The translations under genes were made by a program, and so were the position numbers. A DNA stretch of 64,000 nt from Octopus vulgaris. Lineage: Eukaryota. The stretch covers positions 54,994,001-55,058,000 of the forward strand of contig OX597819.1 in NCBI GenBank assembly GCA_951406725.2. The letters run 5' to 3'. Under the pieces are notes generated by a model. That model saw only the letters and a program-made list of their open reading frames with translations. It made no database searches and was not told where the DNA came from. The first letter of the stretch is position 1; each line of letters begins with the position of its first letter. Below, one piece after another: positions 8,660-62,372 of this stretch.

Positions 8660-8990
8660 AATCCTTTCTCCTATAGACGCAAGGCCTGAAATTTTGGGAG
8701 CCAGTCGATTAGATCGATCTCAGCACGCAACTGATACTTATTTTATCGATCCCGAAAGGATGAAAGGCAAAGTCGACATCGCTGGAATTTGAACTCAGAA
8801 CGTAAAGATAGGCAAAATGCCGCTAAGCATTTTCCCCGGCGTGCTTCACGATTCTGCCAGCTCGCCGCCGTAATAATGTTAGCTGGCAGAATCGTTAGCA
8901 CACCGGATAAAATGCTTAGCGACATTTATTCCGATTTTACATTCTGATTTCAAATTCTATTGAGGTCGACTTTGCTTTTCATTCTTCGGA
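8660..8990. mobile_element. Head-to-head pair of family B SINEs (Meta-like domain)
   Basis: Minus copy 8660-8869 and plus partial copy 8880-8990; consensus GGCGAGCTGGCAGAATCGTTAGC...GAGTTCAAATTCC...GAGGTCGACTTTGCCTTTCATCC. Confidence 0.85.
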
Positions 8991-10734: not shown

Positions 10735-11745
10735 AGGCGCAGGTGTAGCTGCGTGGTAAGAAGCTTGCTTCCTAATCACACTGTTCCAGGTTCAGTCCCA
10801 CAGCGTGCCATCTTGGGCAAGCGTCTTTCACTGTAACCTTAGGCCGATCAAAGTCTTGTGAGTGGATTTGGTAGACGGAAGCTGAAAGAAGCCCGTCGTA
10901 TGTGTGTGTGTGTGCGTGCGTATTTATGTATGTCTGTGTTTGTCCCCCATCCCAGTGTGTTTATGTCCCCGTAACAGCGTTTCGGTGAAAGATACCAATA
11001 GAATAAGTACTAGGTTTACAAAGGATAAGTTCTGGGGTCGATTTCTTCGACTAAAACCCTTTAAGGCGTTATGTATTTAATGCAAAATATACACGCGTGT
11101 GTGTGTTTTTGTGTGCGTGCGTATTTATGTGTGTCTGTGTTCATCCCCCACCGCCGCTTGACAACCGGTGTTGGTGTGTTTATGTTTCTGTAACTTAGCG
11201 GTTCGGCAAAAGACACCGATAGAATAACTACCAGGCTTAGTAAAAAAAAAATACTGTGGTTGATTCACTGGGGCTAACCATAGAGGGGACAAACAAGGAC
11301 AGACAAATGGATTAAGTCGATTACATCGACCCCAGTGCGTAACTGGTACTTATTTAATCAACCCCGAAAGGACGAAAGGCAAAGTCGACCTCGGTGGAAT
11401 TTGAACTCAGAACGTATAGACGGATGAGATAACGCAAAGCATTTTGTCCGACGTGCTAACGATACTGCCAGCTCGCCGCCCTAAAAGAATATAAAGCATA
11501 CATAGACGCAGCAGTGGCTGTGTGGTAAGTAGCTTGCTTACCAACCACATGGTTCCGGGTTCAGTCCCACTGCGTGGCACCTTGGGCAAGTTTCTTCTAC
11601 TATAGCCTCGGGCCGACCAAAGCCTTGTGAGTGAATTTGGTAGACGGAAACTGAAAGAATAAGTCCTGCGATCGATTTGCTCGACTAAAGGCGGTGCTCC
11701 AGTATGGCCACAGTCACATGACTGAAACAAGTAAAAAGGTAAAAG
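10735..11745. mobile_element. SINE cluster: family A (+) 10735-11070, A partial 11100-11270, family B (-) 11272-11480, A (+) 11503-11745
   Basis: Match to the in-window consensuses; the B copy carries the L1/Tx1-like tail variant. Confidence 0.85.
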
Positions 11746-21060: not shown

Positions 21061-23125
21061 TCTGGTGCTGCTCTCCCCCTCCAGTTGTCACAACCTGGAA
21101 TCCCAGATGTGCCACTGTGTCAAAAGGGAGTCTATATTTGCTCGCGACTACATAGGCACCTAAATTAATCAGCGAAAGCACAGTACATGTTATCAAGTCA
21201 TACATATCTGTGGGGGATAGCTGTCTCTTCTATATACATACACACTCGTTGCATATGTTGTTTTCCGAAACCATTACATCTACATAGACTTCTGATTAAA
21301 AGATTGAATCAACAAGATGGAAGAGAGTGTAGGTTATTAAAGCTGTGTGTTCTGACCTAGAATTTTGTAAACGACTTTGAAATGCACTGATGCAACTTTC
21401 TATCTGACACCCAAATCTGAAGATAGTTGAGTTAGTGAGTGAATGGTGTATTTATCTTTGATTTATCCTTTTCGTTGTCATATTTCTAATGAGATATGGA
21501 GCCTGTGCTTCCCAGTTAATTTTCAAAATTACCACTTAAAATATGCAGGGATTTCGTAAAATAACTTTGTCGTTATTTCAATTACTGCTTGGAATGTAAC
21601 TTAACAACAAGCTCTTGTATTTAAAATTTCGTTGGGCAGCTTTAGTTTAAATACGAACTTTTGAAAATGAGAGTTTGCATTATATAAGATCAGAAGTTGT
21701 GTTAGGAGGGTTGGTGTCAACGTGGTTACTCATGGGAAAGTTCGCTGAATCAATACGATGCTGAACAAAGCATTTTACATTACATTTTACTGTATATATG
21801 TCCACATTTGAAGATCAAACAGAGACAAGATCGATTTTGTTCCTTTCATGTTTCTGGTGTCGATAATAAAACTAGCTTTTGTTTTTATTGTTGCTGTGCT
21901 TGTTGTCGCCGTTGTCACCTTATTCACCGTCTCGCCGTTGCTGTTGTTGTTTAACCTTGGCCAGCCCTGATCAAACAGATCTGTGAGCGAAAAGCATTGC
22001 AGCAGTAGAAACCAAATAGTTTTCGTTTTTATCAGACATAAGTACATCTAAGATTGCATTATAATCCAATGTGTCTTCAAAAAGCAGTTGCATCGCATTA
22101 GACAAAATGCTTTGCAGTATTTATTCTGACCGAGATTCTTTTGCTTTTTATTCTTCCAGGGATCGATAGAATGAAGTTCCGGGCTCTGGAAGCATTAGAC
22201 AAAATGCTTCGTGGTATTCGTATCAACTCCCTATTTTCTGAGTTCTGCCTCCAATAATACTGGCGCCAAACTGTTGCCTTTCTTTTGACAGGAGAGGAGA
22301 GACTTACTCTATAGGCAACTGTTGGTCTCCTAATAACAGAAAAGAAGAAAAATAAGACAACAATAGTTACGTGGACCATCGCTCTGAAGAGGAAATTTTC
22401 TGGAGCAGATTTACGGTTAGATCTGAATGATGGAGGCCTGGTCATCCTTTGCTAAAAATAACAGGCAAACTTTTTCCTGTAAGGACAGTTCAGCTGCTGT
22501 TTATGACAGGTCGAGCGACCACGTAGAGACATCAGTTAACTAATCGAGGGATATAATCTCACTAGCTGTTGTAGTCTTTGCTGCTGCAATTGCTGTTGTT
22601 GTTGTTTAACCCCCACACACACTCACACACACACGCACATACTCAGTCTTGATTGAGCAGATCAATGTTCAAAGGCATTCCAGCTGTAACGATCCGATCT
22701 TTCACTCTCCAATAATCTATCTAGGACAACGTTAACCGATGTGTCCTCCCTCCTTTATCTTAAGACGGCAGGGTATGAATAAGCACAAGTTGACTGCTAT
22801 TTCTAGCAGGTTAATCGGTCTTCTCGTTGGTTGGTTCCTATTCTTAGTGTGATATAACAACGAGCGCTAAATGTCAGCCATGTTTGGGACACAATTTTGA
22901 TTCTCTGATGTAATTAATTATTTCACTTGATTCATATTGTTAATTAGTTAAGTTGGCAGATAGATAATCGCACTCGTAAACAAATACAAACTCTGTTACT
23001 GTCCTTGAAGGGAGTTGCCCTTTTAGTCTACGACTGCCAAACCCGGTAGCGTAGCTATGGGAAGTCGCACAAACTTGTCAATAATCAGTAAATGTGTGTG
23101 CATGTGTGTATGTATGTATATATAC

Positions 23126-31407: not shown

Positions 31408-32027
31408 TATTTCTTTATTGCCAACAGGGGGAGGGGGTAAACACAGAGGGGACATACAAGGACAGACAAAGAGATTAAGTCGATTACATCGACCCCAGTG
31501 CGTAACTGGTACTCAATTTATCGACCCCGAAAGGATGAAAGTCAAAGTCGACCTCGGCGGAATTTGAACTCAGACAACTCGGCGGAATTTGAACGTAACT
31601 GCAGACGAAATACCTATTTCTTTACTGCCCACAAGGGGCTTAACATAGAGGGGACAAACAAGGACAGACAAACGGATTAAGTCGATTACATCGACCCCAG
31701 TGCATAACTGGTACTTAATTTATCGACCCCGAAAGGATGAAAGGCAAAGTCGACCTCAGCGGAATTTGAACTCAGAACGTAACGACAGACGAAATACCTA
31801 TTTCTTTACTACCCAAAAGGGGCTAAACACAGAGGGGTCAAACAAGGACAGACAAACGGATTAAGTCGATTACATCGACCCCAGTGCGTAACTGGTACTT
31901 AATTTATCGACCCCGAAAGGATGAAAGGCAAAGTGGACCTCAGCGGAATTTGAACTCAGAACGTAACGGCAGACAAAAACCGCTATGCATTTCGCCCGGC
32001 GTGCTAACGTTTCTGCCAATTCTCCGC
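31408..32027 (-). mobile_element. Family B SINE tandem trimer (one head, three body+tail units)
   Basis: Units of ~184-207 bp; identical junctions GACGAAATACC|TATTTCTTT at 31614/31615 and 31798/31799. Confidence 0.92.
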
Positions 32028-32033
32028 TTTTCA

Positions 32034-49169: not shown

Positions 49170-49515
49170 AGAACTCGGGCAAAATGCTTGGAGGCTATTG
49201 ATCAAAATATAATGTAGATACAAATACAGTAGTTGAGGTTAACAGGCTAATCAATATCCAATCAATCTACCGAAGGGTGCCAGACGAAAACGTCAGCAGC
49301 CGAACTTATTGACACCCAACAAAATGTCCTGGATTTATTTTGGTTGTGGCTGTGTCTTCTGCTTATTTTCTCTGACGAATGACGAAAACATTTTGATGAC
49401 GTAATCGGAGCGTAGCGCTGGTGGGGAAGGGGAGGCGTACATCGATTAACATGGATATTTGGTATGACAAATGTACTTTACTCTGAGTAAAAAAAGGCAT
49501 TGATATCAAGATAAT

Positions 49516-49900
49516 GGGCGAACTACTACGTGGTCGATCATCCTTTAGAAATAGTTGGCAAGTCTCCCTCAATTCACACCCTACCGTCTTAATGTGGTCA
49601 CTCGTCTTCTAGAAATAGCAGACAAGTCATCCTCAATTCCAACCCTGCCGTTTTAATGTTGTCACTCGTCCTCTTGAAATAGCTGACAAGTCTCCCTCAA
49701 TTCTCACGCTACTGTTTTTTAATGTATTCACTCGTCCTCTAGACATAGTAGACAAGTTTCCCTGATTTCCCGGCCGTTTTAACCGATGTAACAACAGATG
49801 TTATAATATGCTTGAGAAAAAAAAAACGAGATGATTGCAGATGGAATTCATTTGACCAAAGTCCTGCTTGATTAAGACTGACCCAGGGCTAAACATTAAC
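49516..49900 (+). repeat. Old interspersed element family E with a fourfold tandem ~65-bp 5' module
   Basis: GTGGTCACTCGTC.TCTAGAAATAGCAGACAAGTCTCCCTCAATTC repeated, followed by the tail GACCCAGGGCTAAACA. Confidence 0.75.
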
Positions 49901-50269
49901 AGTTATAGACAGTGACTAAAATCATCGTTACTCTCAGTAGAATAGTTAGAGCTTCGAACAAATTCTTTGAGGTATTTGTTCCGGTTCTTAACGCTCTGAG
50001 TTCAAATCTCACCAAGGCCAACTTCACCTCTCATCCTTTTGGGAGGCTGGGGCGATAAAATAAAGTATCAATCACGTACTGAGGCCAGTGTAATCAATTG
50101 AGCCCTACCCCTCAAAAGAGCCAGCTAGAAAGGTAGCTCTCAACCATTTTTTTCACATGGACCCCTTTCATTCCTATTTTGCTCTACTGCACACCCCGTC
50201 CCAATAGCCACTCCATGTTTAAAAAGATCCTATTATATTTTTATAATTAAACATTAAAGTTCAGGCTTA

Positions 50270-50520
50270 CTCTGAACTTTCGTTTGTGAGGAGCTGAGAA
50301 GAAGAGAAGCGCCTACTGAGGTGCATCTAGCAGTCGGGATAACCAGAATGTGTGGGGTTTCCTCGTTTGTCCTTGTGATGAACTTCCCTCTTTTGGGGAA
50401 TTTTGTTGTTTAATTAGATTGTTAATTGTCATTGCTATTTTATTGTTTACTCGATTTTTGTTTTAAACCCCACGTGTCCCTATTCGTTTTGTGTTCAGCC
50501 CTTGTGGCCAATGAAGAAAC
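50270..50520 (+). mobile_element. Putative L1/Tx1-type LINE 3' UTR, followed by a headless family B SINE body (50521-50685)
   Basis: T-rich UTR-like sequence ending CAGCCCTTGTGGCCAATGAAGAAAC, similar to the family B variant tail; no ORF here, so the clade is inferred. Confidence 0.5.
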
Positions 50521-50949
50521 GATATTACATCGGCATCTGAGTTCAAATCCCATCGAGGTCATCTTTCTCTTTCATACTTTCGGGGTCGATAAAATAAGGG
50601 CCAGTTTAGCACCGGGGTCCATGAAATCAATTAACCTCCCTACCAGAAAATTCAGGCTTTGTGTCTATAGTAGAAAGGATTATTAAATCGGTGTCGGTAT
50701 GGGGGTATCTGGGACGATATGAGTGAATGTGTCCTGTTCGAAGACATTGAATAGGATAGGATTTGATGGATATTTAGCCTGTTGTTTCTAGTAGATGCAA
50801 TGAATATGCAGCTGTGCATCGTTAACCAGCAAGAAGAGATGTCCTCACGGGCTTAAAAAACTTCAGTGAAGTCTGTTCGAACGGATTATTACTTGTTAGT
50901 ACACCTACTGCGTTGATCTCTTAGAGAGATTTTAAAACTAGCATTTTTG

Positions 50950-60420: not shown

Positions 60421-61104
60421 TGAAAACCCACAGCTTATTTTGCTAGGTATGATGGAAAGGGTCAGCTGTCCGCAGCCAGCAGACTAAGGTGACACTCGTT
60501 TACTGGTCATGCTTCGAGAACCCTGCGAAGAATTCTTGCAGTTCCAAGCAATGCTGTGTTTTGTAGGTGTTCTACCTTCACACTAGTTCCTATCTTTCTC
60601 AGCCACGTTGGTAGTTGAGTGCTGATACTTCCAAGTGCACCAATTACTATTGGTATCTCGTCTACTCTCTTCATTGACCTCAACCTTCGTATTTCCCACT
60701 TAAATCGTCATAATTGTTTTATTTTCTCTTCTTTCACATTGATCCTGTTGTCACCGGGGCCTGCTATGTCGATTATCATACATGTTCTTTCTTTTTTATT
60801 CACCACAGTAATGTCCGGTTTCCTATGTCTAATCGGGTGATCGCACTGGATCATTGCATCCCACAGGATTTTGCAAATTCTCATTTTCGGTGATTCCTTC
60901 TGGAGTTTTCTCATACCACGACTTTGCTCTTTCTAAGCCGTGATTTCCACAGCTTCCAATGGATCATTCTTGTCGCATTGTCGTGGCGTTTTTTTGTATT
61001 CGCATTGTGCCAATTTCGGCCATTCGCTAGCGATGTGCCATACCGTTTCACCCCTCTCACCACACATTCTGCATTTGTCGCTACCGGTAGTGTTGTCTAT
61101 TCTA
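60421..61104 (-). mobile_element. R4/Dong-like LINE 3' portion
   Basis: Reverse complement encodes KCRMCG, ILWD..IQCD....RKPDI...IIDIAGP, LQNTALLGTARILRRVLEA*; ends at (AAT)n. Confidence 0.92.
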
Positions 61105-61297
61105 TTGTTGTTGTTGTTGTTATTGTGTTGAGTTCAAATTCCGTCTTAGTTGACTTTGCCTTTTATCCTTTCGGAGTCGATGAAATAAGTACCAGTTGAA
61201 CACTGGGGTCAATTTAAATCGATTATTCCCATACCCCAAAGTTTCAGGTCTTGTGCCTATAAGGATTATTATTACTATTGTTGTTGTTGTTGTTAGA

Positions 61298-61860
61298 AAA
61301 ACTGGAACGAGGTAACGAAAAGGGTGGCCAATCTCACCCAGAAATGGGCCTAGAGGAATCTATCCCAGAAAGGTCGAGTCGAGGTGGCAAATGCGTACAT
61401 CGCATCCGTCATCTATTACCGCTTGACCGTCGTCCCTTGCCCCGATTGCTGGTTAACCAAACTGGTGCGCTTACTCTTCTACTTTCTGTGGAAGGGGCAA
61501 GCTCCACTGGTCAGGCGCTTCATCTGCAAACATACGCTCAGACTACGACATCTTAAGCGTTTCTTGGACAGTGAGCAGGTGTGGTCGCCGTTTGTCAGAC
61601 TCGCCTTTCTACAGCTCGTCTCTTTGACTGAGCTGCAATCTTGGACCTAGCGTAGACCGATAAAGGGCGCTTGGAACCTCGAGTGCCGTCAAGCACTCAC
61701 AGCTCTTCGCCAGACGGGCAATACGGTCGGTGGTAGTTCCACTCTAGCGTTCTATAGAGGGTTAATGGAGGGAAAGTGCGACGACGTTCTCGAGGAAACT
61801 CTGGTCGTTGATGACGATCAACTAACCGGTCTGTTTCAGAGAACTTTCGGGCCTTGGCTG
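61298..61860 (+). mobile_element. L1/Tx1-clade LINE ORF2 fragment
   Basis: RNLSQKGRVEVANAYIASVIYYRL...LFYFLWKG matches the post-RT LS..GR..L...FLW pattern. Confidence 0.75.
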
Positions 61861-61959
61861 AAATCCCTTGGCTGAAAAAGGGTGGTTTAGCCTCCAACTG
61901 ACGAAGTTTCTCCATTAGGGATTGACACTCCAGTTTTATTAACGGTGGAAAAGTGAGAT

Positions 61960-62372
61960 AGTTATGAAAGACTTTTAAGACCAAATGGTCAGGAAAACTG
62001 ACGGAAAGGGTCTTGCTCCACCACACAAGCCCTTGCTTTCAATGGCTGCTAAGTGTGGTTGTGGCTTTGAACTGGTTGATTACACTCCCTTTTCTTCTGA
62101 TTTGGCCCCATGTGACTACAACCTGTTCCTTAACATGAAAAAGCACTTGGTTAGGAACCAGTATCGCAGTGATGATGACGCCATATCTGATGTTAATTAC
62201 TTTTTTGCGTAACTGGATAAAAGCTTCTTCCTCAATGGGATCCAAGTACTGCAACATCGTTGGAAGAAGTGTGTGGATCGCAAGAAAGACTATGTTGAAA
62301 AATTAACCTCATGTGGTCACATTCCATGAGAGTATCGTGGTCAGCCTATGAACTTTTCAGCTGACCCTCGTA
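61960..62372 (+). mobile_element. mariner transposase 3' fragment with TIR
   Basis: PFSSDLAPCDYNLF (YSPDLAP.D motif)...GIQVLQHRWKKCVDRKKDYVEK*; ends ACTTTTCAGCTGACCCTCG|TA. Confidence 0.9.

What the first reader, a model, noticed from the sequence alone, without database searches (positions are those of the whole stretch)
50270..50685. Putative partner LINE 3' end joined to the same site of a family B SINE
Seen: a non-SINE UTR-like segment ends TGTTCAGCCCTTGTGGCCAATGAAGAAAC, matching the variant SINE tail over about 30 nt. It is followed immediately by GATATTACATCGGC..TCTGAGTTCAAAT, a decayed family B body beginning at the same GGTATTTCGTCTGC position (10/14 by eye). Inference: this is independent support for a SINE-targeting LINE. 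The Tx1/L1-like ORF2 remnant at 61298-61860 is a candidate relative.
Basis: inference. Interest (0 to 1): 0.7.

Follow-up and report, generated by a model that had tools for sequence, protein, structure and literature searches.

The report
LINE end joined inside SINE head
A decayed 3' end of a likely Tx1-type LINE retrotransposon is joined to a SINE repeat within one base of where a SINE variant with a matching tail joins its own kin, so this LINE likely inserts itself and its SINE passenger into one site of the SINE, a likely new target for a known safe-haven strategy.

Summary
Observation confirmed and strengthened; interpretation partly supported. 50263-50520(+) looks like a 5'-truncated LINE end. 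Its first 27 nt translate RLTLNFRL*, matching the ORF2 C-termini (GPNLSFRL*, GPTLSMRL*, GTTLNMIL*) of RT proteins found through the 61.3-kb remnant. This is the best or tied-best site of 127,948 by nucleotide distance, and rank 3 to 12 of 3,791 by amino-acid score. A 231-nt UTR follows. Its last 45 nt match the variant-SINE tail (36/45; profile E 0.002). It joins a family B SINE body within 1 nt of the two tandem-array junctions. That body is an old common-tail copy, unlike the tandem units, which points to at least two separate junction events. Best reading (0.6): a Tx1-like LINE, probably from an octopus, targets the head of SINE B and mobilises a tail-sharing variant that inserts into its own family. 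Against: one LINE copy only; no SINE head or target duplication at the 5' junction; the 14-nt register needs a 7-nt gap; no endonuclease was seen; no genome-wide junction count was possible. Tx1 elements that target other transposons, with partner SINEs, are published. I found no SINE target in 10 searches. New variant of a known kind; interest 0.5.

The parts
50263..50289 (+). Likely last 8 codons and TGA stop of an L1/Tx1-type ORF2 (RLTLNFRL*)
   Evidence: Best site of 127,948 against the ends of P0002/P0112/P0113/P0115 pooled (3 nt differences) and against P0002 or P0112 alone. Tied best with 2 others using five later-found proteins only. BLOSUM rank 3 or 12 of 3,791.
50290..50520 (+). Likely 231-nt 3' UTR of the LINE: purine-rich start, T-rich middle, A-rich end
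   Evidence: 22 of 30 purines at 50287-50316 and 19 of 30 T at 50437-50466. No second copy of the UTR in the window beyond the tail. UTR status is inferred from position.
50475..50519 (+). Tail shared with the variant family B SINE
   Evidence: 36/45 nt to tandem unit 2; variant-tail profile E 0.0021.
50521..50685 (+). Headless family B SINE body with the common (TTA-ending) tail; inferred 3' half of the target
   Evidence: 104.7 bits to the family B profile from model position 72; 10/14 match over the first 14 nt; 80% to variant units and 70-78% to common-tail copies; common-type tail and diagnostic bases.
50138..50256 (+). 5' flank: truncated piece of an unrelated repeat (other copies near 27.3, 38.1 and 17.0 kb); not a SINE head
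   Evidence: Its second half is not found at 50.4-52.6 kb.
31408..32028 (-). Three head-to-tail variant-tail family B units (period 184); units 2 and 3 start at GGTATTT directly after the tail; unit 3 ends at a purine-rich simple repeat
   Evidence: Unit pairs are 164-171 of 182 nt identical.
11269..11481 (-). Solo variant-tail family B copy whose tail is cut short by another repeat (no junction information)
61297..61876 (+). Internal ORF2 remnant (post-RT region) of the same LINE lineage; two stops and a 17-aa gap; no C-terminus or UTR
   Evidence: 64-70% aa identity to P0002/P0117/P0118/P0119; inside a 97/96 clade with them. The relatives carry RVT_1 and zf-RVT.
49175..49203 (+). Isolated family B head fragment ending about 10 nt past the junction position; possible displaced 5' half of the target (weak)
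   Evidence: Motif with 2 mismatches of 19, 0.01 expected by chance; model positions 32-60, with no body following.

Best explanation
A 5'-truncated piece of a likely Tx1-type LINE (likely ORF2 stop plus 3' UTR, 50263-50520) is joined to a family B SINE body at the position where variant-tail SINE units join each other, likely because the LINE's endonuclease nicks the tRNA-like SINE head there and primes reverse transcription. Shown: the junction position, the shared tail of about 45 nt, and that the body here is a common-tail copy while the tandem bodies are variant copies. Inferred steps: (1) ORF2 nicks the head between the A-box-like and B-box-like parts at ..AGC^GGTATT..; (2) the LINE RNA is copied from its A-rich 3' end and truncates after about 260 nt; (3) a family B subfamily acquired the last 45-60 nt of this LINE lineage, so the same enzyme carries it to the same site in other family B copies; (4) the SINE's own head is homologous to the upstream target, so the new copy joins seamlessly and gives head-body-tail-body-tail arrays; (5) at 50.3 kb the 5' half of the target was lost or pushed away by later insertions or deletion.
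For: ORF2 end. The P0069 lineage end does not fit (13,483 sites as good). Tail. Three of the 4 intact tails of this type in the window abut the family B head at that position. The post hoc motif AAGAAAN{0,3}GRTATT has exactly these 3 hits, 0.17 expected. The chance of a same-strand family B body within a given 25 nt is about 0.004 (coordinates entered by hand), and a match of 10/14 or better has frequency 3.7e-4 per position. The junction region aligns to the tandem junction with score 45, against 14 or less for six intact heads. Targets belong to two SINE subfamilies. Precedent: Tx1 families target other transposons, and SINEU shares the target and forms tandems (PMC4494074). For U2-targeting Utopia the target was seen at the 3' flank in 44 families but at the 5' flank in 11, and 5'-truncated copies lacked it (PMC4640811 passages).
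Against: Only one LINE 3' end is available, and the two tandem junctions may not be independent. The 5' flank is an unrelated repeat, not a SINE head. No convincing TSD was found, only the low-complexity hexamer ATTAAA. The 14-nt register needs a 7-nt gap, so it adds almost nothing to the alignment score. Four other family B copies also begin near the B box (model positions 69-75), so headless bodies occur without this LINE. Unit 3's tail abuts a simple repeat, not a SINE. The ORF2 evidence is 8 residues; with held-out proteins and BLOSUM scoring it ranks 12 of 3,791, among 8 candidate sense stops in the segment. tblastn with the relatives does not detect it. No endonuclease domain was seen in any relative scanned. 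The tail shows no significant RNA structure (z 0.25).
Confidence: 0.6

Rival explanations
1. One founder event, copied by descent: a single LINE insertion into a family B copy created the junction. LINE-end-plus-SINE-body units were then spread by read-through (3' transduction) and DNA-level duplication, with no standing target specificity.
For: It explains the missing head at 50257: the LINE end plus SINE body moved as one 5'-truncated unit ending in the common tail. Tandem SINE arrays from unequal recombination are published (PMC10702118, PMC11481361 passages). Units 1 and 2 share a private C>T change.
Against: The body at 50521 is common-type and only 80% like the tandem bodies, which are variant-type and 92% like the solo variant copy. 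One founder would need later homogenisation. Unit 2 shares a tail variant with the solo copy but not with units 1 and 3.
Confidence: 0.15
2. Template switching: reverse transcription started on a SINE RNA, stopped at a fixed point in the head, and jumped to the 3' end of a LINE or SINE RNA. This makes LINE-SINE chimeras and SINE multimers as single insertions.
For: It predicts no SINE head at the 5' flank, as seen. Such chimeras are described (PMC4494074 discussion). The junction lies in a predicted long head hairpin, but z is only -1.6 to -1.7.
Against: The three junctions agree to +/-1 nt, whereas the switch points Kojima describes vary by up to 22 nt. It would need two different RTs (common-tail and variant-tail partners) to stop at the same base. 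No outer TSD beyond ATTAAA.
Confidence: 0.1
3. The true target is a tRNA gene (or another repeat) related to the SINE head, and SINE copies are secondary look-alike targets.
For: The head is tRNA-like by its A-box-like and B-box-like motifs (sequence; label recalled). tRNA genes are listed among targets of specific non-LTR elements (PMC4640811).
Against: There is no tRNA gene in the window to compare. In all 3 junctions the sequence continues into the SINE core, not a tRNA end.
Confidence: 0.07
4. Chance or non-specific adjacency: a 5'-truncated common-tail SINE landed in the A-rich end of an old LINE piece (or the upstream piece is not a LINE), and the 10/14 match is coincidental.
For: Four of about 20 family B copies start near the B box. 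The window is dense in SINEs.
Against: The tail match, ORF2-end match, adjacency (about 0.004) and register (3.7e-4 per position) would all have to coincide. The other B-box-truncated copies follow low-complexity or microsatellite DNA.
Confidence: 0.08

Closest known systems
Tx1-Mar LINEs and SINEU SINEs of crocodilians (Kojima 2015, PMC4494074; read parts 1-4 of 5 of the full text, supplements unavailable)
   Same: Tx1-type LINE and a SINE share one insertion target inside another transposon; the SINE forms tandems by sequential insertion.
   Different: There the target is a Mariner DNA transposon, the SINE heads are U1/U2-derived, and no shared 3' tail was found. Here the target is a tRNA-like SINE head, the SINE shares a tail of about 45 nt with the LINE, and it would target its own family.
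Xenopus Tx1L targeting Tx1D (as summarised in PMC4494074 and PMC6719617 passages; the primary paper was not held)
   Same: APE-type LINE inserting at a fixed site of another mobile element.
   Different: The target is a DNA transposon. Endonuclease specificity was studied for Tx1L; nothing of that kind is shown here.
Keno and Utopia, U2-snRNA-targeting LINEs (PMC4640811 passages)
   Same: The 3' end is followed by the downstream half of a small-RNA-derived target at a fixed position; the 5' half is often missing; tandem insertions occur.
   Different: The target is a functional U2 gene; Utopia uses an RLE endonuclease.
SINE-LINE tail sharing and tail swapping in molluscs (PMC11481361, PMC4758252 passages)
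   Same: One SINE body with different LINE-derived tails.
   Different: Partners reported in bivalves were CR1, CR1-Zenon, L2 and Nimb; the passages seen name no Tx1 partner and no site-specific nesting.
SINE-derived satellites (PMC10702118 passages)
   Same: Tandem units made of part of a SINE.
   Different: Explained there mainly by unequal recombination; no LINE end shares the unit boundary.

Membership tests
L1/Tx1-type non-LTR retrotransposon | ORF2 with RT and C-terminal zinc-binding (zf-RVT) region | tested here: met
   Met in relatives: P0117-P0119 carry RVT_1 and zf-RVT; closest solved structure is L1 ORF2p, E about 1e-50, against R2 at 1e-24. The window holds only a post-RT remnant (61.3 kb) and the last 8 codons (50263).
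L1/Tx1-type non-LTR retrotransposon | N-terminal apurinic-like endonuclease | tested here: inconclusive
   No such domain in the 18 relatives scanned; the longest (905-912 aa) appear to be N-terminally incomplete.
Tx1 clade (as opposed to L1 clade) | RT groups with reference Tx1 elements in a phylogeny | not testable with these tools
No reference Tx1 set was available. The tree has only unnamed relatives, and the atlas gave no family name.
Tx1 clade (as opposed to L1 clade) | ORF1 with gag-like zinc knuckle | not testable with these tools
   No 5' part of the element in the window.
Target-specific LINE | More than 20% of 3' ends flanked by the same repeat at a fixed site | tested here: inconclusive
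   1 of 1 LINE end and 2 of 3 intact variant-SINE ends in the window; the sample is too small.
Target-specific LINE | Target split by the insertion, 5' half upstream, with or without TSD | tested here: inconclusive
   The immediate 5' flank is another repeat. A head-only fragment lies 1.06 kb upstream. No TSD was found.
SINE-LINE partner pair | Shared 3' tail | tested here: met
   36/45 nt; profile E 0.0021.
SINE-LINE partner pair | Concurrent activity | tested here: inconclusive
   Variant units are 90-94% alike over their length, while the 50.5-kb locus is about 20% diverged. This copy is an older relative of the mobilising family, not evidence of overlap.
tRNA-derived SINE (Deu/Nin type) | tRNA-like head with A and B boxes | tested here: inconclusive
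   Box-like motifs are visible in 10 heads; ARAGORN and Rfam find nothing.
tRNA-derived SINE (Deu/Nin type) | Deu/Nin central domain | not tested
   Resemblance recalled; no reference sequence was on hand.
Template-switch chimera | Variable switch point in the 3' partner | tested here: not met
   The three junctions agree within 1 nt.

The most novel reading that the evidence does not exclude
An octopus Tx1 lineage has evolved an endonuclease specific for the tRNA-derived head of an abundant SINE, and a subfamily of that SINE captured the LINE's tail and became self-targeting. It inserts into its own relatives, knocks out or borrows their Pol III promoter, and builds headless tandem arrays: a three-way host-parasite-hyperparasite loop among retroposons.
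Probability: 0.5. Interest if true: 0.7.

Novelty: new variant of a known kind. Interest (0 to 1): 0.5.

Why it matters
SINEs are about 11.6% of the O. vulgaris genome and L1-Tx1 has recently active families (PMC13282606 passages). If this window is octopus, as the protein relatives suggest, a LINE that targets SINE heads would add SINEs to the list of Tx1 targets. It would explain nested and tandem SINE arrays that repeat annotators miscount as separate families. It would also give a natural case of a SINE steered into its own family. And it would offer a new sequence-specific APE endonuclease whose site is known to within a base and can be tested in vitro.

Tried and rejected
Decayed SINE instead of LINE UTR: rejected (profile hit only E 0.53; intact heads align at 14 or less against 45 for the tandem junction). 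Second copy of the UTR in the window: none. Other genomic copies: two exact-pattern scans of genome contigs and blastn against plasmids and phages found nothing, as expected for animal DNA. No eukaryotic DNA collection was on hand, and metagenome and viral contigs stayed unchecked. Spurious ORFs crossing the junction: a search with the tandem's antisense ORF gave 1 protein from 1 candidate, not informative. Cluster members and sources of the relatives could not be looked up. Insertion into the flanking repeat as a clean unit: its second half is not downstream. ORF2 or ORF1 remains between 49204 and 50256: none by profile or by eye in three forward frames of 49204-49545. The R4-like LINE at 60.4-61.1 kb as partner of the common tail: no tail similarity (score 14). 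Conserved tail hairpin: not significant. Pfam on the segment's ORFs: nothing below E 0.1. Atlas: unnamed clusters only, below the recognition threshold. P0120 reads past the usual stop into a Lys/Glu-rich stretch, consistent with a purine-rich UTR start but not alignable.

Full report
Setting. The window is AT-rich, dense in microsatellites (145 tandem-repeat rows), and has no tRNA or Rfam hit. Pieces of the LINE lineage studied here occur in gene models of Octopus sinensis and O. bimaculoides (P0125, P0126), so an octopus origin is likely; this is inference. Family B has a tRNA-like head and a core (the Deu/Nin label is recalled, not tested). It has common tails, one ending in TTA repeats, and a variant tail found in a three-unit tandem at 32028-31408(-) and a solo copy at 11481-11269(-).

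Observation. All quoted motifs are present; GATATT starts at 50521. The tail match covers 50475-50519: 36 of 45 nt to tandem unit 2, a score that none of 3,599 background windows or 5,000 shuffles reach. Against units 1 and 3 it is reached by 4 and 24 of 3,599 windows. A profile trained on the four variant tails alone picks this segment as its best non-training hit, E 0.0021. The 14-mer matches 10/14, a level reached by 47 of about 128,000 positions. The B box follows 16 nt after the tail instead of 24, so a 7-nt gap is needed. The upstream segment is not SINE sequence.

Is it a LINE end? The 98-aa frame of the 61.3-kb remnant found 109 relatives. The best, P0002, is 64% identical over 184 aa and runs to the ORF2 end, GPNLSFRL. 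Two further searches gave 6 and 13 proteins. Nine close relatives end in G-x-x-[LM]-[STN]-x-x-[LVF] (P0002, P0112, P0113, P0115, P0117-P0119, P0121, P0122); the rest are truncated, frameshifted, read through, or belong to other lineages. Frame +3 at 50263-50289 reads RLTLNFRL*. Counting nucleotide changes needed to fit the ends, this is the single best of 127,948 positions for the first four ends pooled (3 changes) and for P0002 or P0112 alone, but only among the best 46 for P0115. With five proteins found only after I noticed the motif it ties for best with two other sites. By BLOSUM score it ranks 3 (ten ends) or 12 (held-out five) of 3,791 stop-terminated 8-mers, with 8 candidate sense stops in the segment. 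The end of the sister-lineage protein P0069 does not fit. The site lies within about 7 nt of where the unrelated upstream repeat stops (50256) and 231 nt before the tail. The remnant at 61.3 kb falls in a 97/96 clade with these proteins (18 rows); they carry RVT_1 and zf-RVT and are closest to L1 ORF2p among solved structures. I put 'LINE 3' end of the same lineage as the 61.3-kb remnant' at about 0.85. The two pieces are in the wrong order to be one copy and do not overlap, so identity at family level is untested. Tx1 as opposed to L1, and the APE domain, were not testable.

The junction. Of 4 intact tails of this type in the window, 3 abut the family B head at the same position to +/-1 nt; the fourth (unit 3) abuts a purine-rich simple repeat. 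The body at 50521-50685 has the common tail and common-type diagnostic bases and is 80% like the tandem units, which are 95-97% like each other and 92% like the solo variant over the core. So the junction occurs in two SINE subfamilies of different age. That fits a shared DNA target better than one inherited junction. Against this: the 5' flank is a truncated unrelated repeat whose remainder is not nearby; no TSD was found except ATTAAA; and four other family B copies start near the B box without any LINE. A head-only fragment at 49175-49203(+) ends about 10 nt past the junction position and is not followed by a body. It could be the displaced 5' half with a short duplication. But 1.06 kb of other sequence with no ORF2 signal intervenes, and the would-be duplicates agree poorly, so it is a lead only.

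Mechanism. Most likely (0.6): target-primed reverse transcription at a nick in the SINE head made by a Tx1-type endonuclease. The variant SINE carries the LINE tail and is delivered to the same site, and its head anneals to the homologous upstream target to give seamless tandems. The nick, the mobilisation and the annealing are inferred. Rivals: one founder junction spread by transduction or duplication (0.15), template switching (0.10), chance (0.08), tRNA gene as the primary target (0.07).

Literature. Kojima 2015 (PMC4494074; parts 1-4 of 5 read; supplements with target tables and the Fig. 3 labels not visible) reports Tx1 families targeting U2, microsatellites, piggyBac, Mariner, Harbinger and LTR elements, and SINEU sharing the Mariner target with tandem insertions. 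Passages only were seen for PMC4640811, PMC13282606 (plus a term search of its one supplement), PMC4758252, PMC8869645, PMC3747384, PMC8967140, PMC5804259, PMC10702118, PMC11481361, PMC5786205, PMC9115989 and PMC6719617. PMC4795812 and PMC85248 were not held. Ten searches and these passages showed no report of a Tx1 element targeting a SINE or of a self-targeting octopus SINE. Repbase, Dfam, SINEBase and subscription papers (Kojima and Fujiwara 2004; Ohshima and Okada 1994) were not searchable and may already hold it.

Verdict. A real feature. The LINE identity is well supported for so short a piece; the shared tail is supported; site-specific SINE targeting is probable but rests on one LINE copy and two possibly dependent SINE junctions. 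New variant of a known kind; interest 0.5.

Noticed in passing
window 49175-49203 (+): Family B head fragment with no body, ending about 10 nt past the junction position, 1.06 kb upstream of the LINE piece; possible displaced 5' half of the target.
   Followed up: partly
window 60421-61100 (-): 3' remnant of another LINE with a restriction-like-endonuclease-type C-terminus (R4/Dong-like by recall), ending in an (AAT)n repeat; its tail does not match the common SINE tail.
   Followed up: partly
window about 61960-62350 (+): Mariner-like transposase remnant (by eye) shortly after the ORF2 remnant.
   Followed up: no
window 43652(-), 44546(-), 54691(-), 61125(+): Four family B copies start within model positions 69-75, at the B box, after low-complexity or microsatellite DNA; a possible second recurrent truncation point.
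   Followed up: no
window 8660-8990: Two family B copies head to head, forming an inverted pair.
   Followed up: no
window 49541-49763: 64-bp tandem of 3.5 copies; part of it also matches 22643-22817(-).
   Followed up: partly
window 61125-61297 (+): Headless common-tail family B copy with a TTA/TTG tail abuts the 5' end of the ORF2 remnant.
   Followed up: no
protein P0120: Labelled as from a Herbaspirillum MAG but 58% identical to the window's ORF2 remnant; likely animal host contamination in that assembly.
   Followed up: no
proteins P0125, P0126: Octopus gene models whose N-termini are pieces of this LINE's ORF2 C-terminal region; likely annotation artefacts or exonisation.
   Followed up: no
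window 31615-31570 (-): Tandem unit 3 carries an 18-nt local duplication around the B box.
   Followed up: no
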